A DNA stretch of 64,000 bases, taken from the NCBI GenBank assembly GCA_029565065.1, contig JAKQOW010000095.1:5616-69615 (forward strand), given 5' to 3'. This stretch comes from Acidobacteriota bacterium. GTDB lineage: Bacteria > Acidobacteriota > JAAYUB01. Each line of letters begins with the position of its first letter. Position 1 is the first letter of the stretch. The translations under genes were made by a program, and so were the position numbers. Shown here one piece after another: positions 7,830 to 44,960 of the stretch. The notes below the pieces were generated by a model, which was not told the DNA's origin, ran no database searches, and saw nothing but the letters and a program-made list of their open reading frames with translations.

Positions 7830-9935
7830 ATGGCCGATCAGAAGCACGTCCCCTACGTTCCTGTGACGACGGACATGAAGGAGTTCACTCTTCGGGCCAT
7901 GGCCATCGGGCTGCCGCTGGCGGTGATCCTCGGCGCCGCCAACGCCTACCTCGGCCTCAAGGCCGGCATGACCATCGCCGCGACCTACCCGGCCGCCGTC
8001 ATCGGCATGGCCCTGCTGAAGCTGTTCAAGGGCAGCATCCTCGAGGAGAACATCACCCGGACCGTCGGCTCCATCGGCGAATCGGTCGCCGCCGGGGCCA
8101 TCTTCACGATTCCGGCGTTCATGATCGCCGGAGTCTGGACGGGGGATTTCATGACCCTGTCCCACTACCTCGAGGCCACCGCCATCATGCTGGTGGGTGG
8201 TTTCATCGGCATTCTGTTCGTGACCATCCTGCGGCGGGTCATGGTGGAGGACAAGGAGCTGCCGTTCCCCGAGTCGGTGGCCGCCTCCGAGATCCATAAG
8301 GCCGGCCGCGGCGCCAAGGGCGGCGGGGCCAAGTTCCTGTTCACCGCCATGGGCATCGGCGCCGCCATCCAGTTCTTCAAGGAGTTCAAGCTGTTCGCCT
8401 CCAAGGGCGAGGCGTTCATCGCCTTCAAGGACAAGCTGCTGGGCATCAACTCCGCCAGCAGCGCCCAGGCCGGCGGCGGCGCGCTCATCTCGACCCCCGG
8501 CGTGTCGCCGGCTTACATCGGCGTCGGCTACATCATCGGCCCACAGCTGGCGGCCCTGAACTTCAGCGGCGGCCTGCTGGCCTGGGGCCTGTTCGTGCCG
8601 CTGCTGCTCTATTTCCTCGGCCCCGCCCTCTGGACCCAAGTGACCGACACCCTGACCAAGAACCCGGAGGCGATCAAGGACCTGCTGGACAAGAAGTACT
8701 GGGACGCTTTCCTGGCCGATCCCAACCCGGCGCACTGGGCGGAACAGCTCTGGATCGCCCTGGCCAACAGCGTCTGGTCCAAGGTCGTCCGACCCATCGC
8801 CATCGGCGGCATGCTCATGAGTGCCGCCTTCACTCTGTACCGCATGCGCAACAGTCTGGCCGCCGGTCTGGGGCGCGCCATCCGCGACGTGCGCAAGGCG
8901 GCCACCGGCGGCGTCGCCGAGGAACGAACCGAAAAGGACATGTCCTTCAAGTGGGTGTTCATCGGCATCATCCTCGCCTCGATCGCCACGTTCTTCATCT
9001 ACTACTACTTCAGCGGTCACGTCGGCGCGGCCCTGGTGGCCACCGTCGTCATGGTGATCGCCGGCTTCTTCTTCGCCGCGGTCTCCGGCTACCTGGTGGG
9101 GCTCATCGGCTCCAGTAACAACCCGATCAGCGGTCTGACCCTGTCCACGCTCATCGTCGCCGCGTTGCTCATGGTGGCGTTGGGGGTGAGCGGTGAACCC
9201 GGCGTGGCCGCCGTGCTCGGCGTGGCCGCGGTGATCTGCGTCGCCGCCGCCGTGGCCGGTGAAATGCTGCAAGACTTGAAAGTCGGCCACATCCTGGGCG
9301 GCACGCCGTGGAAGATGCAGGTGGGCGATTTCTTCGGCGTGATCCTCTCCGCCGGCGTCATGTTCATCCCGCTCTGGATCCTCCACCAGGGCGACATCAC
9401 CCGGGGCGGCACCGGCCTCGGCGGCGCCGAATACCCGGCGCCCCAGGCCAGTCTGATGGCCATCCTGTCGCAGGGCATTGTCGGCGGCGACATGGCCTGG
9501 CCCCTCATCATCGTCGGCATCCTCATGGCCATCGGCTTCATCCTGCTGCGGGTCAAGAGCCCGATGCTGGTGTGCGTCGGCATGTACCTGCCGCTGGAGA
9601 CCACGTTCGCCATCTTCCTCGGCGGCCTGATCCGCGGGATCGCCGACAAGGTCGTGGCCCGCAAGAAGCTCAACGAAGCCCAGTCGGCGCGGGTGGAGAA
9701 CACCGGCGTGCTGCTCGCCTCCGGCCTCATCGCCGGCGAGGCGCTCATCGGCCTGTTCTTCGCCTTCCTGGCGGTCATGGAAATCAACGTGCCGTCGATC
9801 TTCGCGCAGTCCGGCTCCATGCTCCAGTTCCTCCCCACCCTGCTGGTGTTCGTGTTCGTGGGCTGGTACCTGGTGAAGGTTCCGGTGTCCAACGCCGGCA
9901 GCCCCGACGAACCGGCGCCGCCGCGGGCCATGTAG
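7830..9935 (+). CDS. Oligopeptide transporter, OPT family
   Basis: EFTLRA...AANAYLGLKAGMT, LPFPESVA, SSNNPISG, DLKVGHILGGTPWKMQ, APQA, ASGLIAGE motifs; many TM helices. Confidence 0.95.
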   Translation: MADQKHVPYVPVTTDMKEFTLRAMAIGLPLAVILGAANAYLGLKAGMTIAATYPAAVIGMALLKLFKGSILEENITRTVGSIGESVAAGAIFTIPAFMIAGVWTGDFMTLSHYLEATAIMLVGGFIGILFVTILRRVMVEDKELPFPESVAASEIHKAGRGAKGGGAKFLFTAMGIGAAIQFFKEFKLFASKGEAFIAFKDKLLGINSASSAQAGGGALISTPGVSPAYIGVGYIIGPQLAALNFSGGLLAWGLFVPLLLYFLGPALWTQVTDTLTKNPEAIKDLLDKKYWDAFLADPNPAHWAEQLWIALANSVWSKVVRPIAIGGMLMSAAFTLYRMRNSLAAGLGRAIRDVRKAATGGVAEERTEKDMSFKWVFIGIILASIATFFIYYYFSGHVGAALVATVVMVIAGFFFAAVSGYLVGLIGSSNNPISGLTLSTLIVAALLMVALGVSGEPGVAAVLGVAAVICVAAAVAGEMLQDLKVGHILGGTPWKMQVGDFFGVILSAGVMFIPLWILHQGDITRGGTGLGGAEYPAPQASLMAILSQGIVGGDMAWPLIIVGILMAIGFILLRVKSPMLVCVGMYLPLETTFAIFLGGLIRGIADKVVARKKLNEAQSARVENTGVLLASGLIAGEALIGLFFAFLAVMEINVPSIFAQSGSMLQFLPTLLVFVFVGWYLVKVPVSNAGSPDEPAPPRAM

Positions 9936-24202: not shown

Positions 24203-25209
24203 TGATCATTCCGAAGGGGAAGCCGGTTCATAAGGAACTCAGCTCCTATTTCGTGGACCTTGGCAAACTGCTCGAGGAACTCAAAGGCAATTCTTTCTCC
24301 GGTCTCATCGAACTGGTGGGGGTCAAGCACGAAGGCGAAATCCTGCTCGAAGGCGGCGCCGTGGCCAACGTCCGGATCCGCGGGGATGCCAACCTGCTGG
24401 GTCGCCAGCACCTGGGCGCCATCCTTCAGATCGGCCGGAAGGAGAACCTCCTCATCTCCACCTACCAGCTGCCCCCGGAAGCCGTTTTTTTCATCTCGCG
24501 TTACCTGGGCAGTGAGAAAATCCACGAAAACATCTCCAGCGAGTTCACCGACCCCAAAAAGCTGCTGAGCCGCCTGGAAAGCGATCCCAACGACCACTTC
24601 GTGGAAGTGATTTTCCAGAAGAATATCGGCTACGGCCTCCTGTTCGTCCAGGACGGGCAGCCGGTGGACGCGCTGATTTCCCTGCTGGGCAAGGACCTGA
24701 TCGCCGGCACGACCGCCATCAACGAGATCATCGAGGGATCCCGCGACCTGGGCGCGGTGTTCAACGTCTACCGCGCCACCGGGCAGGAAGTCGCACCCAC
24801 ACCGGCGGAGGTGGAGATCACCCAGGACGAAGTCCGGGTGGTCATGGAAACGCTGCTGAACGAATTCCGGAAGGATTTCCCGGCGGACAACAAGCGTGGA
24901 CTTGATTTCAACCACCTCTTCCGGGAATCCTGCCTGGAGCTGGCGGACAAGTTCCCCTTCCTGGATCCGTTCGCGGCGGAGTATTCCTACCAGGACGGCC
25001 GGCTGGAACTGCACGCGGAGGACAAGCCCAGGGTCATCGCGGAAGCCACGTTCCGGCTCATCCGGCACGTTCTGGAGAAAATGATCGCAGCCCGGGTCGC
25101 CTTCCCCCTTGAGCCGTTCCGCGAGCGGACTCGGGCCCTGCTGGCGGCTGATTACGCCTACGCCGCGTCCAGCCTGGACTTGGACAAGTTTTACGAAATT
25201 CTCAAATAA
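24199..25209 (+). CDS. Hypothetical protein with two tandem DUF4388/DUF2226-like repeats and a helical C-terminal domain
   Basis: DLGKLLEELKGNSFSGLIEL...GEILLEGG repeated as DPKKLLSRLE...GLLFVQDG; ATGA overlap. Confidence 0.65.
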   Translation: MMIIPKGKPVHKELSSYFVDLGKLLEELKGNSFSGLIELVGVKHEGEILLEGGAVANVRIRGDANLLGRQHLGAILQIGRKENLLISTYQLPPEAVFFISRYLGSEKIHENISSEFTDPKKLLSRLESDPNDHFVEVIFQKNIGYGLLFVQDGQPVDALISLLGKDLIAGTTAINEIIEGSRDLGAVFNVYRATGQEVAPTPAEVEITQDEVRVVMETLLNEFRKDFPADNKRGLDFNHLFRESCLELADKFPFLDPFAAEYSYQDGRLELHAEDKPRVIAEATFRLIRHVLEKMIAARVAFPLEPFRERTRALLAADYAYAASSLDLDKFYEILK

Positions 25210-25218
25210 TGGACAGCC

Positions 25219-25713
25219 ATGGAAGATCTACTCGGCAAATTTGTGGATGAAGTCAGCACCGTCATGGGCGTCCGCTCCGCCTACCTAGTGAACAACCGCG
25301 GTGAGCTCCTCTTTCCCCAGACCGAACGGCTGGGCCGTGCCAACCTCACCGCCACCGGGGCCCTGGAGATGGTCCAGTGTCTGGGTGTCCTCGAGCTGCC
25401 CGGCGACGAGATCTCCGAAGCCGAAGTGAGTTTTGTCGAAGGCAAGCTGATCGTGTACAACAACGTGCGCCTGCTGGTCCCCACCAAGCTGGGCGTGCAG
25501 GAGACCATTCTGGTCCTGCTGGGCGACAAGAACCTCAACAAGGCCCACCTGCGGCTGACCATGAATGTGGCGCTGTCGAAGGTGGTCTCCGACAAGCGTT
25601 ACAAGAAGCTGGCCCAGCCGGTGCGGATACGCAAAACCTCGGTGCTCTCGCGCGAGAAGCTGAACGAGAAGGAGTATGCCCAGGCGGAGCGAATCCGCCA
25701 GATCGTCGGTTAA
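25219..25713 (+). CDS. Roadblock/LC7 (MglB-like) fold protein
   Basis: EVSTVMGVRSAYLVNNRGELL...AEVSFVEGKLIVY...ILVLLGDKNLNKAHLRLTMNVA pattern. Confidence 0.6.
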   Translation: MEDLLGKFVDEVSTVMGVRSAYLVNNRGELLFPQTERLGRANLTATGALEMVQCLGVLELPGDEISEAEVSFVEGKLIVYNNVRLLVPTKLGVQETILVLLGDKNLNKAHLRLTMNVALSKVVSDKRYKKLAQPVRIRKTSVLSREKLNEKEYAQAERIRQIVG

Positions 25714-26555: not shown

Positions 26556-27776
26556 TTGAAACTCACAATCCGGACTAAACTGCTGGGTTTATCTCTCTTT
26601 GCCATCGTGATCCCGCTGATCATCTCCGCCGCGGTCATCGTGGTGATCGTCACCCAGAAGACGCTGGACGAATCCCTGGGCAAGATTCGCGCCAACTCGG
26701 ACATCGCCACCACCCAGTACGCGCAGCGGATGAACGAGATCAAGGAAAACACCAAACTGCTGGCCATCAACGCGCTGCAGTACGATTTCATCACCGCGAT
26801 CAATCCGGCGGCGGCTCCGCCGGCCGCGGTCGGCCAGTCCGACCTGGAACGCCGCAAGGCGATCAACGTGCTGGAAATCGTCAAACAGCAGCTCCGCATC
26901 GATTACCTGACCCTGACCGACGGCCGGGGGCGCGTGCTGTACCGCGTCAACAACCCGAGCCAGCGCAACGATGACCTCGCCGCCATGGATCCGATGCTCC
27001 GCGAGGCGCTGAGCAACCGGAAGGTGGTGTACGGCTCGGTCAAGCTGCCTATCGACTACATGTCGCAGGAAAAGCTGGAGGACGCCCTGGCGGTCGGCAC
27101 CCAGAAGAAGCAGATCGAAGCCGCACTGGGGATGGAAGTGGTGGTGCCGCTGATCATGGGCGAGGAGGTCCGCGGGGCGCTGGTGGCCGGCGACGTCCTC
27201 AACAACGACAACCAGCTTGTCGACCAGCTCAAGCAGATGGTCTACAAGGAAAACATCGAGGCGGGATCGGCCACCCTGTACCTCGGGGAGACGGCGGTCG
27301 CGTCATCGCGCAGCGGCGCGGCCGGACGCGGCGTGGGCGAGACGATCACCCAGGAGATCTTCAACTACGTTCTCAACCAGGGCAAGGAGTTCATCGGGAC
27401 CGAAACCATCGGGGAGATCAGTTACGTCAGCGCCTACGTTCCCATCAAGGACATCTCGAACCAGATCATCGGCATCTACTCGGTGAGCGTCCGGGAGACC
27501 TGGTTCCGCCAGTTCCAGAACTACATCCGGAACTTCATCATCATCGTCATCGGCGCGGCCATCCTGTTCTCGGTGCTGCTCACGTACATCGTCGCCACCC
27601 GCATGACCAAGCCCATCGAGATGATCACCGAGGCCGCCAACAAGATTTCGCTGGGTGACCTGGACGTCCCGATCCAGGTCAAGACCGGCGGCGACGAGAT
27701 CGGCCGCCTGGCCGACTCGCTGGACCGCATGCGCATCAGCTTGAAGTCCGCCATCGAGCGTCTGCGCAAACGCTGA
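26556..27776 (+). CDS. Membrane sensor with extracytoplasmic Cache domain and terminal HAMP, no output domain
   Basis: Two TMs flank the Cache region (TLYLG...YVSAYVPIKDISNQIIG); HAMP TKPIEMITEAANKISLGDLDVPI...DEIGRLADSLDRM then stop; TTG start with SD GAGGTG. Confidence 0.88.
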   Translation: MKLTIRTKLLGLSLFAIVIPLIISAAVIVVIVTQKTLDESLGKIRANSDIATTQYAQRMNEIKENTKLLAINALQYDFITAINPAAAPPAAVGQSDLERRKAINVLEIVKQQLRIDYLTLTDGRGRVLYRVNNPSQRNDDLAAMDPMLREALSNRKVVYGSVKLPIDYMSQEKLEDALAVGTQKKQIEAALGMEVVVPLIMGEEVRGALVAGDVLNNDNQLVDQLKQMVYKENIEAGSATLYLGETAVASSRSGAAGRGVGETITQEIFNYVLNQGKEFIGTETIGEISYVSAYVPIKDISNQIIGIYSVSVRETWFRQFQNYIRNFIIIVIGAAILFSVLLTYIVATRMTKPIEMITEAANKISLGDLDVPIQVKTGGDEIGRLADSLDRMRISLKSAIERLRKR

Positions 27777-28808: not shown

Positions 28809-29423
28809 TCAGGCGCCCGCCTCCCCCACCACCAGATACAGATCGTCCGCCTCGCGCCAGATGACCGGGCCGAGGCGGGCGTTCGCCAGCATGCGGTTCA
28901 CAACCTCCCGTGGCGGGATCATGTCGTGGGCCACCGCCGACCCCACGCCGGCGTGGAAGGCGTTGAGCTTCTCCCGGCCGGTGAGATGGCAGATGACCAG
29001 CCGCCCCGCCGGCCGCAGCAAACGGGCCAGGGCAGCCAACGCCTCGGCCTTGCGGCTCAGGTGGGGGAAACAATTGTAGAGCAGCACGGCGTCGAAGGCG
29101 CCCGGACTGAAGCTCGGCCGGTGGGCATCGGCAAGCACCCAGCCGGCGCCGGCCGTTGCCTCCCGGCCGCGGGCCTGGCGCAGCATGGGCAGCGAGAAGT
29201 CCATGCCCACCACGCGGCCGCCCGGTCCCACGAGGTCCATGATCACCGACGTGATCCGCCCGGTGCCGCAGCCGGGCTCCAGGATGCGCTGCCCGGGGCG
29301 CAGGCCGGCTTCCGCCAGCACCGTCCGCAGGCGGGGCAACTCGCGGGAATCCTGGTAGTCGGCGTCCCAGCCGTCGGCATGACGGTCGAAGAAGGCCCGT
29401 TTGTCGGTGTGCGGATCAGTCAT
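28809..29423 (-). CDS. Class I SAM-dependent methyltransferase
   Basis: ILEPGCGTG, GMDFSLPML, ADAH, FDAVLLYNCFPH, LLRPAGRLVI. Confidence 0.9.
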   Translation of the reverse strand: MTDPHTDKRAFFDRHADGWDADYQDSRELPRLRTVLAEAGLRPGQRILEPGCGTGRITSVIMDLVGPGGRVVGMDFSLPMLRQARGREATAGAGWVLADAHRPSFSPGAFDAVLLYNCFPHLSRKAEALAALARLLRPAGRLVICHLTGREKLNAFHAGVGSAVAHDMIPPREVVNRMLANARLGPVIWREADDLYLVVGEAGA

Positions 29424-30237
29424 AGCGGGTCGCCTCCCGGCGCCGGAAAATCAGGACGACAAAGAACGCGGCGCAGAGCACGACGATCACCATGGCGCCC
29501 GTGCCCACGTTCCACCAGGCCGACAGCAGCACGCCCGCGAGGCAGCCGCCCGCGCCCAGCGCGGCGCTGGCGACGAAGAGCGCCGGCAGGCTGCGGGCGA
29601 ACAGCCGTGCGGTGGCTGCCGGCGCGATGAGCACCGCGAAGATCAGCAGGCCGCCCAGCGCCTCCAGGTAGACCGCTACCGACAGGCCCACCACCGTCAG
29701 CACCAGGCCCATCAGAAACGCGTCCCGGAGCCCCGCCGCCGCGGCCAGCTTCCGGCTCACCAGCAGCGCCCGCAGGCCGGGGTAGAACCCGACGATGAGC
29801 GCCGCGACGAGGGCCGTGGCCCCCGCCATCCAGACCAGCCGGTCCGGCGGCAGGAGCAGGATGCTGCCCCACAGGAGGGCCAGCAGGCGGTTGATCTCAC
29901 CGCCCGCCAGGGACATCCCCATGAAGGTCAGGCCGAGCATGGTGGAGAAGACGATGCCCACCGCCAGCTCGTGCTCCTGACGGGACTTCTCGATGATGGG
30001 ACCGATGAGCCACACGGCCAGACAGGCACCGGCGAAGGCGCCGCTCATCGGCGACACCCCCAGCAGGTGCCCGGCCACCGCCCCCGCCATGGCGCCGTGG
30101 GCCGCCGCCACGCCGATGAACGGGATGCGCAGGCCCACGATGAGCACGCCCAGCAGGCCGCAGCCGACACCGCCGGCCAGGGCCGCCCACAGGGCCCGCT
30201 GCATCAGCGGGAGGTGCAGCCAGTCGAGCAGGTTCAT
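29416..30237 (-). CDS. Metal ABC transporter permease (ZnuB/MntB family)
   Basis: LMQRALWAALAGG, HGAMAG, LLWGSILL, GGLLIFAVLIAPAATARL. Confidence 0.9.
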   Translation of the reverse strand: MNLLDWLHLPLMQRALWAALAGGVGCGLLGVLIVGLRIPFIGVAAAHGAMAGAVAGHLLGVSPMSGAFAGACLAVWLIGPIIEKSRQEHELAVGIVFSTMLGLTFMGMSLAGGEINRLLALLWGSILLLPPDRLVWMAGATALVAALIVGFYPGLRALLVSRKLAAAAGLRDAFLMGLVLTVVGLSVAVYLEALGGLLIFAVLIAPAATARLFARSLPALFVASAALGAGGCLAGVLLSAWWNVGTGAMVIVVLCAAFFVVLIFRRREATRYD

Positions 30238-30956
30238 GACGCCCCCTCCGGCGGCACGCCGGCGGCCGCCAGCGGTCGATCGGCCGACAGCCGACCGTCC
30301 TCCAGGTGCAGCAGGCGGGTGGCCGCTTCCGGCGGTTCGTCGGCCTGGTGGCTGACGAGGATCACCGCCAGGCCCTGCTCCCGGTTCACCCGCGCCAGCA
30401 GCCGGGCGATCTGCTCCCGGGCGGCGCGGTCCAGGTGGTTCATCGGCTCATCCATGAGGATGAGCTGCGGTTCCTGGAGCAGGATCCGGGCGATGGCCAC
30501 CTTCTGCAGCTCGCCGCCCGACAGCGCCGCCAGGGGCCGGTCCAGGAGCGGGATGATACCGGTGTAGCCGGCGATTTCCGCCAGGCGGGCGGCGCGTTCG
30601 TGCCGGCTGCCGCGCCGCGTCCCCCAGCCGCCGAACTGGGCCAGCGCGGCGAAATCGCCCGCCCGGATTGGGATGCGCGTGTCGAACCAGGCCTGCTGCG
30701 GCAGGTAGCCGATCCGGCGCCGCAGCGCCGGGCGGTTCGACCAGAGCATGCGCTGCCCAGCGACGCAGACCTGCCCGGCGGTGGGCGTCGCGAAGCCGGT
30801 GATTGTCTCGAACAGCGTGGTCTTGCCGGCGCCGTTGGGCCCACGCAGCAGGATGAATTCGCGGGGCGCCACCCGCAGGTTGACGTCCTGGAGGAGCCGG
30901 CGGCCGCCTCGCTCCACGCTCACACCGGTCAGTTCAACGAGCGGCGTGGCGGACAT
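30234..30956 (-). CDS. Metal ABC transporter ATPase
   Basis: GPNGAGKTT, IGYLPQQ, LSGGELQKV, LMDEP, VSH. Confidence 0.92.
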   Translation of the reverse strand: MSATPLVELTGVSVERGGRRLLQDVNLRVAPREFILLRGPNGAGKTTLFETITGFATPTAGQVCVAGQRMLWSNRPALRRRIGYLPQQAWFDTRIPIRAGDFAALAQFGGWGTRRGSRHERAARLAEIAGYTGIIPLLDRPLAALSGGELQKVAIARILLQEPQLILMDEPMNHLDRAAREQIARLLARVNREQGLAVILVSHQADEPPEAATRLLHLEDGRLSADRPLAAAGVPPEGAS

Positions 30957-31770
30957 GGCTGAGGGCTTCCCGAAGCGTGCGGGTTTGCGACTGGAAATAC
31001 GCCAGGTAATCGTAATGTCCCGCCGGGTCCGTGGGGAAATTGCTGAGCACGACGTGCGGCCGGCCCCACTGTTCCGCCAGCCGCCCGGTGATGCCCGCCT
31101 GGTCCGACTGCAGGTTGCCCACCAGCAGAGCCACGTCTCCCGGCGGCCGCCGGATCAGCTCCGGCGAGGGGTCGGCGCCGGCGAGCCAGGTGCCGCGCAC
31201 CTCGATCCCCAGGAACCGCAGGAATTCCGCTTGGCGGCTGTCGCAGACGACCCCCACCCCGCGACCCAGCCGTCGCAATTCGGCCATCGCCGTCTCGGTG
31301 TGCCGGCGCACGGTGTCATCGGCCGCCGCGTGGCGAGAGCGGATCACCGGCGCCTGTCGGGGAAACCGGCGGCTCAGGACATCGGCCGCATCGGCCAGCC
31401 CCGCCCGGTAGTTGTCGGGGATGAGCGCGGAGCCCCGGTCGGGCAGCACATCCAGCGCTCCCGGCAGGGCCAGCCCGGACCAGCGGGTTCGGAGGTCCTT
31501 TTGGAAGGCGTGGGTGAGAGCCAGGTCACAACGCTGGATGGCCAGGGCGTCGGCGGGGGCCAGGTCGTAATGGCCCGGACAGGAACCGGGCGGGACGAGC
31601 AGGTACAGCTCCGTCTCCGGTCCGGCCAGGCTGTGCACCATCGCGTACAACAGGGAGGACGAGACCACCACCCCCGGCCGCGGCGGCTCCGGCGCCGGCG
31701 TGGCGAGCGACCCGCCGCAGCCGGCCGCCGCCAGCGTCAGCAGGAGGACGGCCGGCATCCCCCAGCCCAT
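30934..31770 (-). CDS. Atypical ZnuA/TroA-like substrate-binding lipoprotein
   Basis: Lipobox AAAGC; VVVSSSLLYAMVHSLAG...LVPPGSCPGHYDLAPAD; start uncertain (31770 or 31758). Confidence 0.8.
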   Translation of the reverse strand: MGWGMPAVLLLTLAAAGCGGSLATPAPEPPRPGVVVSSSLLYAMVHSLAGPETELYLLVPPGSCPGHYDLAPADALAIQRCDLALTHAFQKDLRTRWSGLALPGALDVLPDRGSALIPDNYRAGLADAADVLSRRFPRQAPVIRSRHAAADDTVRRHTETAMAELRRLGRGVGVVCDSRQAEFLRFLGIEVRGTWLAGADPSPELIRRPPGDVALLVGNLQSDQAGITGRLAEQWGRPHVVLSNFPTDPAGHYDYLAYFQSQTRTLREALSHVRHAAR

Positions 31771-31835
31771 CGCCCGGACGATCCTTGATCCAACCTTACG
31801 GGCGTCAGTTGCTCGATTCGGATGGCACAAACCGC

Positions 31836-31864
31836 TTGACCTCACCGTCGCCAACTCCTATAGT
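31836..31864 (+). promoter_or_regulatory. Sigma70 promoter TTGACC-N17-TATAGT for the TonB receptor
   Basis: Near-consensus hexamers; the -10 overlaps the palindrome. Confidence 0.75.
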
Positions 31865-31889
31865 GTTACCGATTTATTATACGTAACAC
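31863..31889. promoter_or_regulatory. Perfect palindromic operator GTGTTAC-N13-GTAACAC (NikR-type)
   Basis: 7-bp perfect inverted half-sites with AT-rich spacer; equals GTGTTA-N15-TAACAC, the form I recall for deltaproteobacterial NikR. Confidence 0.75.
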
Positions 31890-31904
31890 GGAGTGTAATG
31901 TCCA
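31876..31904 (-). promoter_or_regulatory. Sigma70 promoter TGGACA-N17-TATAAT for the ABC operon
   Basis: Minus-strand hexamers at 31899-31904 and 31876-31881. Confidence 0.75.
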
Positions 31905-33838
31905 CGTCTCCGCGAATCGCCCTGATTTTTTGCTGGGCTGCTCTGGCCGCCATCACCGGTTGGGCCGTCGAATCACCGGCGGGCCGCGAACCGGATGCGC
32001 CCGTGCCGCCGCTGCGCACCGAGATCGAGGTCCGCGCCGACGCCCCGATCGTGGAGGGCAACCACATCGCCGCCGACGGGATCACGTTTTCCCGCGTCAC
32101 GCGGACGCAGCTGGACGACCTGATGGCTCACGACATCCTCACCGGCGTGCGCCGCGTGCCCGGCATCCTCATTTCCCGCTACAACCTGGTGGGAAGCTAC
32201 GGCGGCGGCGAGGGCGGCACCCTGTTCATCCGCGGCATGGGTTCGGGCCGCCCCGGCGCGGAGATCCAGTTTCTCGTCGACGGCGTCCCCCGCGTATCCG
32301 GAGTCTGGGCCCACCCCCTCATGGACGTGCTCGCTGTGGACACCATGGCGCAGATCGACGTGGTCAAGGGCGCTTCCCCCGTTCTGTACGGCAACATGAG
32401 CTTCGGCGCGGTGGACATCCGCACCCGGCGCATGCTCCAGGACGGGCACGAGCTGGAGCTCTCCGCGGCCGGCGGCTCCTACGGCACTCTGCTCACCGCC
32501 CTGAACGGCGGCTTCCGGCAGGGCCGGTTCGACACCTACGTCTCGCTGGGATACAAGCACTCCGACGGACACCGGCCCCAGGCCGACGGCGAGCTGCAAC
32601 ACTACTTCGGCCGCCTGGGCTACGCCGTCGCCCCGGGCTGGCGGCTGGACTTGGCAGTGACCCACACGAACAACTACGCTCGCGACCCGGGCGTCGCCGG
32701 CCTGCCGCCGCCGCCCCGCGCCCAGTTCAACACCGACGACTGGCTCACGGTGGTCACGCTGGAGAACACGCTGGCCCAATGGGACGGGTACTTCCGCTTC
32801 TACAGCGACAACGGCATGATCAACTGGCAGCAGTGGAACACCGGCCGGCAGCAGAGCGAGGACAACGACACCGACTATCACAACTGGGGCTTCCGCGCCC
32901 GCCAGACGTGGCGCGGCAGCGACCGGGTGGCGCTGACGGCCGGCTTCGACTGGGACGACTACGGCGGCGACTTCACCAGCGTCATCGGCGGTGTGGCGGG
33001 CCCCACCCGGGGCGAGCGGTTTCGCAACGCTGCCCCCTATGCGCTGGCGAGCGCCGAGTTCGGCGACAGCACGAAGATCGCGCCGGTCGCCGGACTGCGC
33101 GTCAACGTCAGCGACCCGTTCGGCACATTCCTGGCCCCCCAGGCCGGTGTCAGCCTGATCCGCGGCGGCACCACGGCGCACGTCTCCCTCTCGCGGGGCT
33201 TCAACCTGCCCGGCGTGTACGCGGCCGTGTCGTACGACCAGTGGGGCCGGGGCGACGCCTGGCGCGAGCTGGAGCCGGAACGGGTGGTCCACCTGGAGGC
33301 GGGTGTATCCCGGGTGGTCAACACCTGGCTGCGCCTTGACGCCACCTGTTTCCACGACCGCGGCCGCGACGCCCTCCGCTTCGCCGCCCCGCCGCCGAGC
33401 TACGAGAACATCGCCGAGTACGAGCTCAACGGCCTGGAGACCTCGGTCACGGTCTGGCCGGCCGACGCGCATCACCTGTTCGCCGCCTACACATTCCTGG
33501 ACGCCCAGCCCCACGACACGCCCTACGCGCCGCGCCACACGATCGTCGCCGGCTGGAACTGGAAACCGCTCCGCCGGCTCGACGTCGCGGTGGACGCCCA
33601 GTACATCGGCCGCCGCTTCGCCGCCAATCCGCGCTATCCCGGCGCCCGCGTCGCCATGGACGGCTTCACCCTCTTCAACGCCCGGCTCGACCTCCACGTC
33701 ACCCCCGAGAGCTGGCGGGAGCGGGTGACACTGTTCGGGGCCGTGGAAAACCTGACGGACACCGACTACGAATATCGCCCCGGCTACCCCATGCCCGGCA
33801 TCACCCTCCTGGGCGGGCTCCGGGTGACGATCCACTGA
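31898..33838 (+). CDS. TonB-dependent outer-membrane receptor
   Basis: Signal peptide; plug IRGMGSG...LVDGVP...IDVVKGASPVLYG...GAVDI; C-terminal VENLTDTDYEYRPGYPMPG...GLRVTI; SD GGAG. Confidence 0.93.
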   Translation: MSTSPRIALIFCWAALAAITGWAVESPAGREPDAPVPPLRTEIEVRADAPIVEGNHIAADGITFSRVTRTQLDDLMAHDILTGVRRVPGILISRYNLVGSYGGGEGGTLFIRGMGSGRPGAEIQFLVDGVPRVSGVWAHPLMDVLAVDTMAQIDVVKGASPVLYGNMSFGAVDIRTRRMLQDGHELELSAAGGSYGTLLTALNGGFRQGRFDTYVSLGYKHSDGHRPQADGELQHYFGRLGYAVAPGWRLDLAVTHTNNYARDPGVAGLPPPPRAQFNTDDWLTVVTLENTLAQWDGYFRFYSDNGMINWQQWNTGRQQSEDNDTDYHNWGFRARQTWRGSDRVALTAGFDWDDYGGDFTSVIGGVAGPTRGERFRNAAPYALASAEFGDSTKIAPVAGLRVNVSDPFGTFLAPQAGVSLIRGGTTAHVSLSRGFNLPGVYAAVSYDQWGRGDAWRELEPERVVHLEAGVSRVVNTWLRLDATCFHDRGRDALRFAAPPPSYENIAEYELNGLETSVTVWPADAHHLFAAYTFLDAQPHDTPYAPRHTIVAGWNWKPLRRLDVAVDAQYIGRRFAANPRYPGARVAMDGFTLFNARLDLHVTPESWRERVTLFGAVENLTDTDYEYRPGYPMPGITLLGGLRVTIH

Positions 33839-43871: not shown

Positions 43872-44960
43872 TCAGTCCCGCCGATACTTGTACCAGGCGG
43901 CGCAGGTGCCTTCCGACGACACCATGCACGCCCCGACGGGCGACTCCGGCACACAGGCGGTTCCGAACAACGCGCAATCCGGCGGCTGGCAGATGCCCTT
44001 GAGGATGTCGCCGCACCGGCAGCCGGCCGGCTCCGCGGCCGGCTCCAGGGGGACCGGAAAGCGCGCGGCGGCGTCGAACTCCCGGAACTCGTCCCGCAGC
44101 GCCAAACCGCTCCCCGGCAGAAGGCCGATCCCCCGCCAGCGGTCGTCGCACGGCTGGAAGGTCTCCGCCAGCAGGCGCTGGGCGGCCCGGTTCCCCTCGG
44201 GCCGGACCACGCGGGCGTACTCGTTGTCCACCGTCGGCGCGCCGCGGATGATCTGCTCCGCCAGCAGCCGGACGCCCTGCAGGATGTCCAGCGGCTCGAA
44301 GCCCACCACCGCGCAGGCGACGCCGTAGCGCTGCGGCAGGAACTCGTAGGCCCGCGCACCGATGACGGCGCTCACGTGGGCGGGGCACAGGTAGCCGTGG
44401 ACTCCGACGGCCGGGTCGCGGGCCAGCACGTCCATCGCCGGCGGGATGAGCTTGTGGGCCACGAGCACGGAGAAGTTGTCCAGCCGCTCCCGCCGGGCCT
44501 GCTGCACCGCCGCCGCGACGGTGGGGGCGGTGGTCTCGAAGCCCACGCCCAGGAAGACCACCTGGCGGTCGGACCGGCGGCGGGCCACCTCGAGCGCGTC
44601 GAGGGTCGAGTAGACGACCCGGATGTCCCGCCCGGCCGCCCGCTCGTGACTGAGGGTGGTGTGCGCGCCGGGCACCTTCATCATGTCGCCGAAGGTGGTC
44701 AGCACCACCTCCGGGAGCCGCCCGATGGCGACGGCCCGGTCGATGTAAGCCATCTCGGTCACGCAGACCGGGCACCCCGGGCCGGAGATCAGGTTCACCG
44801 TCTCGGGCAGCAGGTCGCGGATCCCAAAGCGGTGGATCGCCATGGTGTGCGAGCCGCACACCTCCATGAGGGTGATCCGGCGCCCCAGCGGCAGGCCGCA
44901 AATCGCCTCCGCGAGCCGGCGGGCGTCGTCCCGGCCGCGGAATTCCTGGATGTACTTCAT
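43872..44960 (-). CDS. hypD: Hydrogenase maturation protein HypD
   Basis: MEVCGSHT, SGPGCPVCV, GVGFETT, PAHVS, C-terminal CRCGDILKG...CALFG...GACMVSSEGTCAA. Confidence 0.97.
   Translation of the reverse strand: MKYIQEFRGRDDARRLAEAICGLPLGRRITLMEVCGSHTMAIHRFGIRDLLPETVNLISGPGCPVCVTEMAYIDRAVAIGRLPEVVLTTFGDMMKVPGAHTTLSHERAAGRDIRVVYSTLDALEVARRRSDRQVVFLGVGFETTAPTVAAAVQQARRERLDNFSVLVAHKLIPPAMDVLARDPAVGVHGYLCPAHVSAVIGARAYEFLPQRYGVACAVVGFEPLDILQGVRLLAEQIIRGAPTVDNEYARVVRPEGNRAAQRLLAETFQPCDDRWRGIGLLPGSGLALRDEFREFDAAARFPVPLEPAAEPAGCRCGDILKGICQPPDCALFGTACVPESPVGACMVSSEGTCAAWYKYRRD

What the first reader, a model, noticed from the sequence alone, without database searches (positions are those of the whole stretch)
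31836..31904. One NikR-type palindrome covers two face-to-face promoters, suggesting a nickel uptake regulon
Seen: a perfect GTGTTAC-N13-GTAACAC (31863-31889). A plus-strand promoter TTGACC-17-TATAGT (31836-31864) drives the TonB receptor and a minus-strand promoter TGGACA-17-TATAAT (31904-31876) drives the ABC operon. Predicted start sites almost coincide inside the operator, and the minus -35 overlaps the receptor ATG. Known: ribbon-helix-helix NikR binds widely spaced short half-sites; GTGTTA-N15-TAACAC is the deltaproteobacterial form as I recall it and needs confirming. Inference: a single repressor co-regulates outer- and inner-membrane Ni uptake; hypD in the window indicates a need for Ni.
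Basis: partly seen in the sequence, partly recalled or inferred. Interest (0 to 1): 0.72.

Follow-up and report, generated by a model that had tools for sequence, protein, structure and literature searches.

The report
NikR operator gating divergent nickel-uptake promoters
A perfect binding site for the nickel-sensing repressor NikR sits on top of two opposing promoters in an Acidobacteriota genome. It appears to switch off an outer-membrane receptor and a "zinc-type" ABC importer that comparative evidence says is really a widespread, so far unrecognised nickel importer.

Summary
All evidence is computational; there is no start-site, binding or transport data.**

- **The site.** GTGTTAC-N13-GTAACAC (31863-31889) exactly matches the published delta-proteobacterial NikR consensus. 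It is unique in the 4.4-Mb genome (0.004 copies expected).
- **The regulator.** A full NikR gene lies elsewhere in the genome.
- **Conservation.** Box, -35, -10, Shine-Dalgarno and ATG are invariant across three genera while the flanks drift.
- **Link to nikR in the phylum (Acidobacteriota).** All 16 of 300 genomes with the exact box carry nikR (25 % background; P = 6e-11). The boxes lie beside TonB receptors and/or nikR.
- **The regulated genes.** They are a TonB receptor and, divergently, an ABC-3 (ZnuABC-type) importer. Its binding protein has a rebuilt Cys-Pro-Gly-His site, and a SAM methyltransferase is coupled to the operon.
- **The cassette elsewhere.** In 80 loci from a dozen or more phyla the order is [nikR]-box-receptor-SBP-ATPase-permease-methyltransferase. 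nikR is adjacent in 16 of them, and NikR boxes are about 40-fold enriched.
- **Other importers.** No known dedicated nickel importer is detectable in this genome, although it has [NiFe] hydrogenases and hypD.
- **Annotation.** Databases label the binding protein zinc or manganese.

The operator is a new member of a known kind. The transporter class under it is a new variant.

The parts
31863..31889 (.). NikR operator: GTGTTAC-N13-GTAACAC, half-site centres 20 bp apart, with an A+T-rich spacer
   Evidence: unique perfect copy, 0.0037 expected. Consensus in PMC545781. Invariant in 5 genomes of 3 genera.
31836..31864 (+). Sigma-70-like promoter of the TonB-dependent receptor: TTGACC-17-TATAGT. 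The last two bases of the -10 are the first two of the left half-site.
   Evidence: 10/12 matches. TTGAC and TA..GT are invariant across three genera. The start site of about 31871 is inferred.
31876..31904 (-). Sigma-70-like promoter of the ABC operon: TGGACA (31904..31899)-17-TATAAT (31881..31876). The -10 lies in the operator spacer and the -35 overlaps receptor codons 1-2.
   Evidence: 11/12 matches. It is present in all three congeners that have the divergent ABC operon and absent in sister genera that lack the operon. The start site of about 31869 is inferred.
31802..31828 (.). Decayed remnant of a second, upstream NikR box (GCGTCAG-N13-ATGGCAC), 61 bp from the main box
   Evidence: The homologous position carries GTGTTAT-N13-GTGACAC in G002, GTGACAC-N13-GTGTTAC in G003 and GTAATAC-N14-GTAACAC in G005. 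It has 6 mismatches here, so it is probably non-functional.
31898..33838 (+). TonB-dependent outer-membrane receptor (646 aa): signal peptide, TEIEVRA TonB-box-like motif, plug domain
   Evidence: Pfam Plug 56.6 bits. Weak full-length BtuB-type match. Orthologues at 56-57 % identity sit behind the same box in sister genera. Homologues at 38-43 % identity are fused to the cassette in other phyla.
30934..31770 (-). Lipoprotein substrate-binding protein (278 aa) with a cluster A-I fold and a rebuilt site (C64-P-G-H67-x-D69, H87, Q180, N219, Q221, S243, N244)
   Evidence: Pfam ZnuA matches the N-lobe only. AlphaFold pLDDT 90.8. Foldseek hits to YfeA/PsaA/AztC/TroA at TM 0.70-0.75 and 14-19 % identity. 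Residue conservation. The canonical ligand-1 His is Tyr here and variable in the family.
30234..30956 (-). ABC ATPase (240 aa); overlaps the SBP stop
   Evidence: Pfam ABC_tran 106 bits; nearest named family AztA.
29416..30237 (-). ABC-3 family permease (273 aa)
   Evidence: Pfam ABC-3 154 bits; nearest AztB/ZnuB families, below their cut-offs.
28809..29423 (-). Class I SAM methyltransferase (204 aa); its start overlaps the permease stop by 8 nt
   Evidence: Pfam Methyltransf_11. No curated NCBIfam family is reached. Conserved downstream of the permease in 39 of 80 cassettes. Also found inside a NikR-boxed ECF-type operon (L110).

Best explanation
The 27-bp palindrome is the operator of the genome's single NikR, a ribbon-helix-helix, nickel-binding tetramer.

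When nickel is sufficient, Ni-NikR places its two DNA-binding dimers on the two half-sites, which lie two helical turns apart. The bound protein covers the -10 element and start site of both opposing promoters, so RNA polymerase is excluded from both. The outer-membrane receptor and the inner-membrane ABC importer (SBP-ATPase-permease-methyltransferase) are therefore shut off together. When nickel is scarce, NikR leaves and both units are transcribed.

Because the two promoters occupy the same roughly 70 bp, only one polymerase can sit there at a time. The two units probably fire alternately.

The cargo is most likely nickel, probably as a small chelate complex. Two features point that way: a TonB receptor is used, and the binding protein has a polar Cys/His pocket instead of the canonical His/His/His(Glu)/Asp ion site.

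Shown: the sequence features, their conservation, the nikR linkage, and the protein folds and families.

Inferred: repression, the start sites, nickel as both effector and cargo, the chelate form, and the role of the methyltransferase.
For: - **Exact match to the published consensus.** The site matches GTGTTAC-[N13/14]-GTAACAC (PMC545781) and is a unique perfect copy.
- **NikR is present.** It has the RHH strand, a NikR_C domain and HIHLTHTDC nickel ligands.
- **Phylogenetic footprint.** Half-sites, -35, -10, Shine-Dalgarno and ATG are invariant in 5 genomes of 3 genera. The minus-strand promoter hexamers are present only where the divergent operon exists.
- **Phylum-wide correlation.** The exact box occurs in 16 of 300 genomes, against 3 for the reversed control. 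All 16 have nikR against a 25 % background, P = 6e-11; by genus 10 of 10, P = 4e-7. None of the 3 control-hit genomes has nikR.
- **Neighbours of the box.** Ten of 13 boxes outside the genus lie in 3-kb loci holding a TonB receptor and/or nikR. Two more have nikR within 3 kb (coordinates).
- **Cross-phylum cassette.** In 80 loci the order is [nikR]-receptor-SBP-ATPase-permease-methyltransferase, with nikR adjacent in 16.
- **Box enrichment at the cassette.** Boxes with 1 or fewer mismatches occur in 10 of 79 loci, against a mean of 0.23 (maximum 2) for 30 permuted half-sites. They lie at the 5' end of the operons.
- **Nickel demand without a known importer.** The genome has two [NiFe]-hydrogenase large-subunit genes and hypD. 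It has no NikM/CbiM, NiCoT, HupE/UreJ or NikA equivalent.
Against: - No experimental data of any kind exist: no start sites, no binding, no metal response.
- No second NikR site lies at hydrogenase or hyp genes of this genome. The candidate upstream of nikR has 4 mismatches and is within chance expectation.
- The transporter family is otherwise known only for Zn, Mn and Fe, and this is the only ZnuA-family protein in the assembly. The organism's zinc importer is therefore unaccounted for.
- The assembly is 93.5 % complete, so the absence of other nickel importers is not proven.
- The delta-type consensus is itself a computational prediction, not a footprinted site.
Confidence: 0.82

Rival explanations
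1. The system is an ordinary zinc or manganese importer (ZnuD-like receptor plus ZnuABC/MntABC) under a Fur-family regulator, and the palindrome's resemblance to a NikR box is incidental.
For: - The permease and ATPase are nearest to the AztB/AztA/ZnuB families.
- The SBP has the ZnuA/PsaA fold.
- It is the only ZnuA-family SBP in the assembly.
- One Fur-family gene exists.
- Public records call the SBP zinc or manganese.
Against: - The operator is a widely spaced 7-N13-7 repeat, not a Fur/Zur-type 7-1-7 or 9-1-9 box.
- nikR, not a Fur-family gene, is adjacent to the cassette in 16 of 80 loci.
- The box occurs only in nikR-positive genomes.
- The canonical ligand-1 His is not conserved, there is no His-rich loop, and an invariant CPGH motif replaces DPH.
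Confidence: 0.03
2. NikR does control the locus, but the cargo is not nickel itself. It could be cobalt or a corrinoid-like or other metal complex, or the local NikR responds to another metal.
For: - The receptor's best full-length family match is BtuB-type, though far below cut-off.
- The methyltransferase weakly resembles a corrinoid-protein-associated methyltransferase.
- Nickel and cobalt transporters are often interchangeable between subfamilies (PMC2667541).
- The rebuilt pocket suggests a complex rather than a bare ion.
Against: - There is no cobalamin or other riboswitch in the region.
- NikR keeps the full high-affinity Ni(II) ligand set.
- The same methyltransferase family sits in a NikR-boxed ECF (CbiQ/O-type) operon next to nikR.
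- The genome has nickel enzymes and lacks every known nickel importer.
Confidence: 0.08
3. The operator controls only the receptor. The ABC operon is driven from another, NikR-independent promoter, and the minus-strand TGGACA-17-TATAAT is a chance match in A+T-rich operator DNA.
For: - In sister genera the box precedes the receptor alone.
- The minus -10 lies in a spacer that is A+T-rich in all NikR sites.
- The ABC leader would be long, at about 99 nt.
Against: - It is the only promoter-like site upstream of the SBP gene in 31500-32200, at 11/12 matches with 0.1 expected.
- Both hexamers are kept in all three congeners, including G002 where the overlapping start codon changed. Both are missing in genera without the divergent operon.
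- In other phyla the receptor and the ABC genes form one co-directional operon behind the box, so co-regulation is the ancestral state.
Confidence: 0.06
4. The palindrome is a chance inverted repeat with no function.
For: Only one copy exists in the genome, and sites with 3 or fewer mismatches are not enriched.
Against: - 0.0037 copies are expected.
- It is invariant across three genera while the flanks diverge.
- It co-occurs with nikR in 16 of 16 genomes.
Confidence: 0.01

Closest known systems
Predicted delta-proteobacterial NikR boxes upstream of nikMNQO/nikKMLQO (Geobacter, Desulfovibrio, Desulfuromonas; Rodionov et al. 2004, PMC545781)
   Same: The consensus is identical, GTGTTAC-[N13/14]-GTAACAC; the G. 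metallireducens site has the same N13 form. The boxes lie upstream of nickel uptake genes. Both inverted and everted half-site orientations occur there, and both are seen here in relatives.
   Different: The phylum differs (Acidobacteriota). The target is not an ECF NikMNQO system but a TonB receptor plus an ABC-3 importer. One box serves two opposing promoters.
E. coli NikR-nikABCDE operator (GTATGA-N16-TCATAC overlapping the -10)
   Same: The logic is the same: a Ni-loaded RHH tetramer binds two half-sites about two helical turns apart and occludes the -10 element. The NikR domain architecture and Ni ligands are the same (established knowledge of E. coli NikR).
   Different: The half-site sequence differs, the transporter class differs (Opp/Dpp-type NikABCDE), and E. 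coli has a single promoter.
Helicobacter pylori NikR repression of the TonB-dependent receptors FrpB4 and FecA3 and of exbB-exbD-tonB
   Same: NikR controls outer-membrane, TonB-energised nickel uptake together with inner-membrane uptake (cited in PMC11247825).
   Different: H. pylori operators are degenerate and A+T-rich. The receptors and the inner-membrane importers (NixA, NiuBDE) are at separate loci with separate operators.
E. coli Zur at the divergent znuA / znuCB promoters
   Same: One metalloregulator site in a short intergenic region represses two divergent transcription units of a cluster A-I ABC importer (recalled from established knowledge, not tested here).
   Different: The regulator family (Fur-type against RHH NikR), the metal, and the operator architecture all differ. 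In znu the SBP is split from the permease and ATPase, whereas here the receptor is split from the whole ABC operon.
Cluster A-I metal-binding proteins (ZnuA, PsaA, MntC, TroA, YfeA, AztC)
   Same: The two-lobe fold with a long rigid linker helix is shared, at TM 0.70-0.75. The partners are an ABC-3 permease and an AztA-like ATPase.
   Different: Identity is 14-19 %. The canonical first His is lost and the other ligand motifs cannot be aligned. An invariant C-P-G-H-x-D motif and Asn/Gln/Ser residues line the cleft. The family is linked to nikR rather than zur or mntR.

Membership tests
NikR operator (delta-proteobacterial type) | Inverted half-sites GTGTTAC / GTAACAC | tested here: met
   0 mismatches in 14 positions, against the consensus in PMC545781.
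NikR operator (delta-proteobacterial type) | Spacer of 13 or 14 nt, placing the half-sites about two helical turns apart | tested here: met
   N13; centre-to-centre distance 20 bp.
NikR operator (delta-proteobacterial type) | Cognate nikR gene in the same genome | tested here: met
   C153:7348-7755, NikR_C 103 bits. Across the phylum, 16 of 16 box-bearing genomes are nikR-positive.
NikR operator (delta-proteobacterial type) | Position overlapping the core promoter of nickel-related genes | tested here: inconclusive
   It overlaps two predicted -10 elements, but the start sites are unmapped. The nickel role of the targets is inferred from context.
NikR operator (delta-proteobacterial type) | Nickel-dependent binding by NikR | not testable with these tools
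   Needs EMSA or footprinting with and without Ni(II).
NikR protein | N-terminal ribbon-helix-helix domain plus C-terminal NikR_C tetramerisation and nickel-binding domain | tested here: met
   NikR_C covers residues 54-127 at 103 bits. The N-terminus ARFGVSCDAELLTAFD...NRSDALAHLMR aligns with 16 other NikRs. RHH was not separately reported by Pfam at E <= 0.001.
NikR protein | High-affinity Ni(II) ligands (H-x-H-x5-C plus a His from the neighbouring subunit) | tested here: met
   HIHLTHTDC and the upstream VYDHH / QHDHH were read from the sequence.
Cluster A-I (ZnuA/PsaA/TroA) substrate-binding proteins | Two alpha/beta lobes joined by one long rigid helix | tested here: met
   Model pLDDT 90.8 with helix 137-169. 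Foldseek TM 0.70-0.75 to YfeA, PsaA, AztC, TroA and ZnuA.
Cluster A-I (ZnuA/PsaA/TroA) substrate-binding proteins | Canonical four-residue ion site (His, His, His/Glu, Asp) | tested here: not met
   The ligand-1 His aligns to Tyr56, and this position is variable in 68 relatives. The remaining ligand motifs are not detectable by sequence: PDB and Pfam matches stop after the N-lobe. Ligands 2-4 were not checked by structural superposition.
ABC-3 (MZT, TC 3.A.1.15-type) importer | ABC-3 family permease with a cognate ATPase in one operon with the SBP | tested here: met
   Pfam ABC-3 154 bits and ABC_tran 106 bits; the genes overlap.
TonB-dependent transporter | Signal peptide, TonB box, plug domain and a C-terminal beta-barrel | tested here: met
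   Plug 56.6 bits. The TonB-B12 model aligns over residues 67-635 at E = 1e-20. The signal peptide and TEIEVRA motif were read by eye. Substrate was not tested.
Established nickel importers (NikABCDE, NikMNQO/NikKMLQO, NiCoT, HupE/UreJ, UreH, NiuBDE) | Homology of the components to one of these families | tested here: not met
   The components belong to the ABC-3/ZnuA families. Reviews of nickel importers list no such type (PMC2667541; PMC11247825). The system therefore works like a nickel importer but is not a member of any recognised nickel-importer family.

The most novel reading that the evidence does not exclude
The operator marks an unrecognised, widely distributed nickel (probably nickel-chelate) uptake pathway. 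It consists of a NikR-controlled cluster A-I/ABC-3 importer whose binding protein has swapped the canonical ion site for an invariant Cys-Pro-Gly-His pocket. It is usually teamed with a dedicated TonB receptor and a SAM methyltransferase.

This pathway would be the main nickel supply route in many anaerobes, including Acidobacteriota, anammox Brocadiaceae/Kuenenia, Moorella acetogens, Desulforudis and Syntrophaceae. It is currently mis-annotated as a zinc or manganese transporter.

The methyltransferase also appears in a NikR-boxed ECF-type operon. It would therefore be a general accessory of nickel acquisition, acting for example on a chelator or on the imported complex.
Probability: 0.55. 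Interest if true: 0.72.

Novelty: new variant of a known kind. Interest (0 to 1): 0.6.

Why it matters
Nickel supply limits hydrogenases, CO dehydrogenase/acetyl-CoA synthase and related enzymes in anaerobes that drive digesters, anammox reactors and acetogenesis. For many of these organisms no nickel importer is known.

If this reading is right, a transporter family currently labelled zinc or manganese in public databases is the missing nickel route. That would correct metal-budget predictions made from genomes and metagenomes.

It would also extend the chemistry of cluster A-I binding proteins to a Cys/His site.

It would give a simple, compact example of one NikR tetramer switching two overlapping opposing promoters.

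It is directly testable in cultured Moorella and with recombinant proteins.

Tried and rejected
- **Single-protein locus search.** The search for related loci with the SBP alone found no confirmed relatives. It succeeded only with the alignment A1.
- **C5 near-match.** A 3-mismatch box on contig C5 shares a 17-mer with the window's intergenic region. It proved to be an isolated 17-nt match (E = 0.075) with no paralogous locus, so it was dropped as coincidence.
- **Riboswitch or structured leader.** There were no Rfam hits in 31000-32600 at E <= 1. The 105-nt ABC leader folds no better than shuffles (z = +0.63).
- **Secondary NikR sites.** Nothing with 3 or fewer mismatches lies near the hydrogenase, hypD or nikR loci. 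The nikR-upstream candidate GTGCTAC-N14-GTGGCAT has 4 mismatches, which is within chance.
- **Literature.** Rodionov et al. 2006 (PMC1317602) is not held. Searches for DVU_1556 and for ZnuABC-like or cluster A-I nickel transporters found nothing relevant.
- **Naming the methyltransferase.** Seven members scanned against NCBIfam (this window's plus six from other cassettes) all fall well below every curated cut-off. The best scores are 53-80 bits, depending on the member, against cut-offs of 155 bits or more (for example the DVU_1556 family).
- **Receptor against solved structures.** Only one marginal hit was found.

Full report
**1. The observation**

- Operator: GTGTTAC (31863-31869), spacer CGATTTATTATAC, GTAACAC (31883-31889).
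- Plus-strand promoter: TTGACC-17-TATAGT (31836-31864).
- Minus-strand promoter: TGGACA-17-TATAAT (31904..31876).
- Receptor start: GGAG at 31890-31893 and ATG at 31898.

A consensus scan of 31500-32200 returned exactly these two promoter-like sites, at 11/12 and 10/12 matches, where 0.1 was expected from shuffles.

The perfect palindrome is unique in the 4.40-Mb, 66 % G+C assembly. Base composition predicts 0.0037 copies per spacer length. Sites with up to 3 mismatches are not in excess, so only the perfect site stands out.

The inferred start sites are about 31871 (+) and about 31869 (-), both inside the operator. The leaders would be about 27 nt (receptor) and about 99 nt (ABC operon).

**2. 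What the palindrome matches**

Rodionov et al. 2004 (PMC545781) derived GTGTTAC-[N13/14]-GTAACAC as the NikR signal of delta-proteobacteria. The Geobacter metallireducens site has the same N13 form. That consensus is computational, not footprinted.

**3. The regulator**

The genome encodes one NikR, at C153:7348-7755. It has a NikR_C domain at 103 bits, an N-terminal strand ARFGVS, and the ligand motif HIHLTHTDC. There is one Fur-family gene elsewhere.

**4. The genes on either side**

On the plus strand is a 646-aa TonB-dependent receptor with a plug domain and a weak BtuB-type full-length match.

On the minus strand are four overlapping genes:
- a 278-aa lipoprotein that matches Pfam ZnuA only over its first 53 profile positions;
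- an ABC ATPase;
- an ABC-3 permease;
- a class I SAM methyltransferase whose start overlaps the permease stop by 8 nt.

No riboswitch or structured leader is present.

**5. Conservation of the regulatory region**

Two congeners keep the box and both promoters.

An alignment with two sister genera shows that TTGAC (-35), TA..GT (-10), both half-sites, GGAG and ATG are invariant while the rest drifts. In those sister genera a 56-57 % identical receptor orthologue sits behind the same box, but there is no divergent ABC operon.

The minus-strand TATAAT and TGGACA are present only in the genus that has the divergent operon. They persist in G002 even though the overlapping receptor start codon changed from ATG to TTG. 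This is the pattern expected if both promoters are real.

A second box 61 bp upstream is present in G002, G003 and G005. It has decayed to 6 mismatches in this genome, at 31802-31828.

**6. Is the box tied to NikR in this phylum?**

A congener is labelled Acidobacteriota.
- The exact box occurs in 16 of 300 genomes sampled from the phylum. The reversed-pattern control hits 3.
- All 16 carry nikR, which only 75 of 300 genomes have. None of the 3 control-hit genomes does.
- The hypergeometric P is 6e-11 by genome, 4e-7 by genus, and 5e-8 outside the window's own family.
- Of the 13 boxes outside the genus, 10 lie in 3-kb loci that hold a TonB receptor and/or nikR. Two more have nikR within 3 kb (coordinates).
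- One locus (L110) reads nikR, box, 207-aa protein, methyltransferase of the same family, CbiQ, ABC ATPase.

**7. Is the ABC system tied to NikR?**

The binding protein has few close relatives. An exhaustive HMMER search finds about 330 cluster representatives at E < 1e-10 with full-length matches at 30-40 % identity.

An alignment of 68 of these shows invariant C64, P65, D69, P118, F245 and P246, and near-invariant G66, H67, Q180, N219, Q221, S243 and N244.

With this alignment, 80 genomic loci were retrieved. They come from Planctomycetota (Brocadiaceae, Kuenenia, Pirellulales, Phycisphaerae), Armatimonadota, Gemmatimonadales, Thermoanaerobaculia, Holophagae, Verrucomicrobiota, Sumerlaeota, Spirochaetes, Syntrophaceae, Desulforudis, Moorella thermoacetica and M. 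mulderi, among others.

A tblastn map gives the conserved order [nikR]-receptor-SBP-ATPase-permease-methyltransferase. Counts out of 80 are ATPase 74, permease 69, methyltransferase 39, receptor 25 and nikR 16. By rough estimate, chance adjacency of a single-copy gene within 6 kb would be about 0.3 %.

NikR-type boxes with 1 or fewer mismatches occur in 10 of 79 loci. Thirty permuted half-sites give a mean of 0.23 and a maximum of 2. The boxes sit at the 5' end of the operons. The adjacent NikRs all keep the RHH strand and the nickel ligands.

The receptor and the ABC genes that are divergent here therefore form one co-directional NikR-boxed operon elsewhere. This argues that their co-regulation through the shared operator is functional.

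**8. Nickel demand and supply in this genome**

Two [NiFe]-hydrogenase large-subunit genes and hypD (43872-44960, 485 bits) are present.

No known dedicated nickel importer is detectable in this 93.5 %-complete assembly:
- no NikM/CbiM;
- no NiCoT;
- no HupE/UreJ above cut-off;
- no NikA equivalent: ten Opp-type binding proteins score 107 bits or less against a 393-bit cut-off.

The window's SBP is the only ZnuA-family protein found.

**9. The binding protein**

The AlphaFold model is confident (pLDDT 90.8, pTM 0.85). It has the cluster A-I fold, with TM 0.70-0.75 to YfeA, PsaA, AztC, TroA and ZnuA at 14-19 % identity.

The His that is metal ligand 1 in MntC/PsaA aligns to Tyr56, and this position is variable in the family. 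The DPHEY motif is replaced by the invariant CPGH(F/Y)D.

I infer a Cys/His-containing pocket lined by Asn, Gln and Ser, suited to nickel or a nickel chelate. This was not verified by superposition.

**10. Mechanism**

Ni-NikR bound to half-sites 20 bp apart would cover both -10 elements and both start sites, and so would repress both units by occlusion. Apo-NikR would release them.

The two promoters share about 70 bp, so they are likely to be mutually exclusive for RNA polymerase.

All of this is inference from the anatomy and from the established behaviour of E. coli NikR.

**11. Comparison with what is known**

NikR operators, NikR control of TonB receptors (H. pylori) and single-operator control of divergent metal-uptake promoters (Zur at znuA/znuCB) are all known. 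The operator itself is therefore a new member of a known kind, in a phylum where I found no prior description.

The regulated importer is not among the recognised nickel-importer families. These are NikABCDE, NikMNQO/NikKMLQO, NiCoT, UreH and HupE/UreJ, with NiuBDE in H. pylori (PMC2667541; PMC11247825; PMC7840056 abstract). Targeted literature searches found no ZnuABC-type nickel system.

Public records name the protein 'zinc ABC transporter substrate-binding protein' in Acidobacteriota and 'manganese ABC transporter substrate-binding lipoprotein' in Moorella.

The methyltransferase reaches no curated family.

**12. Verdict**

Confidence that this is a NikR operator co-repressing both units in response to nickel is about 0.8. 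Confidence that the cargo is nickel is somewhat lower. The wider implication, an unrecognised and mis-annotated nickel importer family, is the part worth following up.

**Limits**

All evidence is computational. The start sites, metal specificity and methyltransferase function are untested. The library searched lacks most subscription-journal papers, so a prior description cannot be excluded.

Noticed in passing
window 31802-31828; L004 (G002) about 1439-1465 read on the minus strand; L108 (G003) about 2553-2579; L107 (G005) about 9864-9891: A second NikR-type box lies 61 bp upstream of the main one in relatives. It reads GTGTTAT-N13-GTGACAC in G002, everted GTGACAC-N13-GTGTTAC in G003, and GTAATAC-N14-GTAACAC in G005. 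In this genome and in G001 it has decayed. A two-site architecture seems ancestral for the family.
   Followed up: partly
window 28809-29423 (-); L110 2502-3095 (G099:C64): The SAM methyltransferase at the end of the ABC operon is conserved in 39 of 80 cassettes. A member of the same family also sits between an unassigned 207-aa protein and CbiQ/ABC-ATPase genes, directly behind nikR and a perfect box. It is therefore linked to NikR-controlled uptake through two different transporter classes. No curated family is reached and its function is unknown.
   Followed up: partly
window 30934-31770 (-): The binding protein family is annotated 'zinc' or 'manganese' ABC transporter SBP in NCBI and UniRef records (for example HOT00924.1, OIQ60586.1, WP_071521381.1). 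This is despite the lost canonical ligand, the invariant CPGH motif and the nikR linkage, so the names are probably annotation errors.
   Followed up: yes
L003 (G001:C20:14851-15681): The congener G001's copy of the binding-protein gene has an in-frame TAG. NCBI lists it as two fragments, NLI47885.1 (66 aa) and NLI47886.1 (223 aa). This is either a pseudogene or an assembly error.
   Followed up: no
G034:C16 (SBP homologue 24737-25372, nikR 27401-27625); G049:C11 (60054-60689, 62819-63043): Even the distant (25-27 % identical) SBP relatives in another family of the phylum have nikR about 2 kb away (coordinates).
   Followed up: no
L020 1432-1458 and L024 3438-3464, with the adjacent nikR genes: Two Thermoanaerobaculia/Holophagae loci carry the perfectly symmetric variant GTATTAC-N13-GTAATAC. 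Their NikRs have the strand RLSFS instead of RFGVS. This may be protein-DNA covariation but rests on only two cases.
   Followed up: no
genome contig C159:13479-13502: A different perfect palindrome, GTGATAC-N10-GTATCAC with an A-rich spacer, turned up in the relaxed motif scan. It may be the site of another regulator.
   Followed up: no
L109 6075-6794 (G051:C8): In one Acidobacteriota genome the nikR-receptor pair behind the box is followed by an FmdE-domain protein. The meaning is unknown.
   Followed up: no
L073 4490-5617 (Moorella thermoacetica): Immediately upstream of the Moorella cassette lies a second, unrelated lipoprotein with the look of a FecB/BtuF-type binding protein. This was read from its sequence only and was not scanned.
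   Followed up: no
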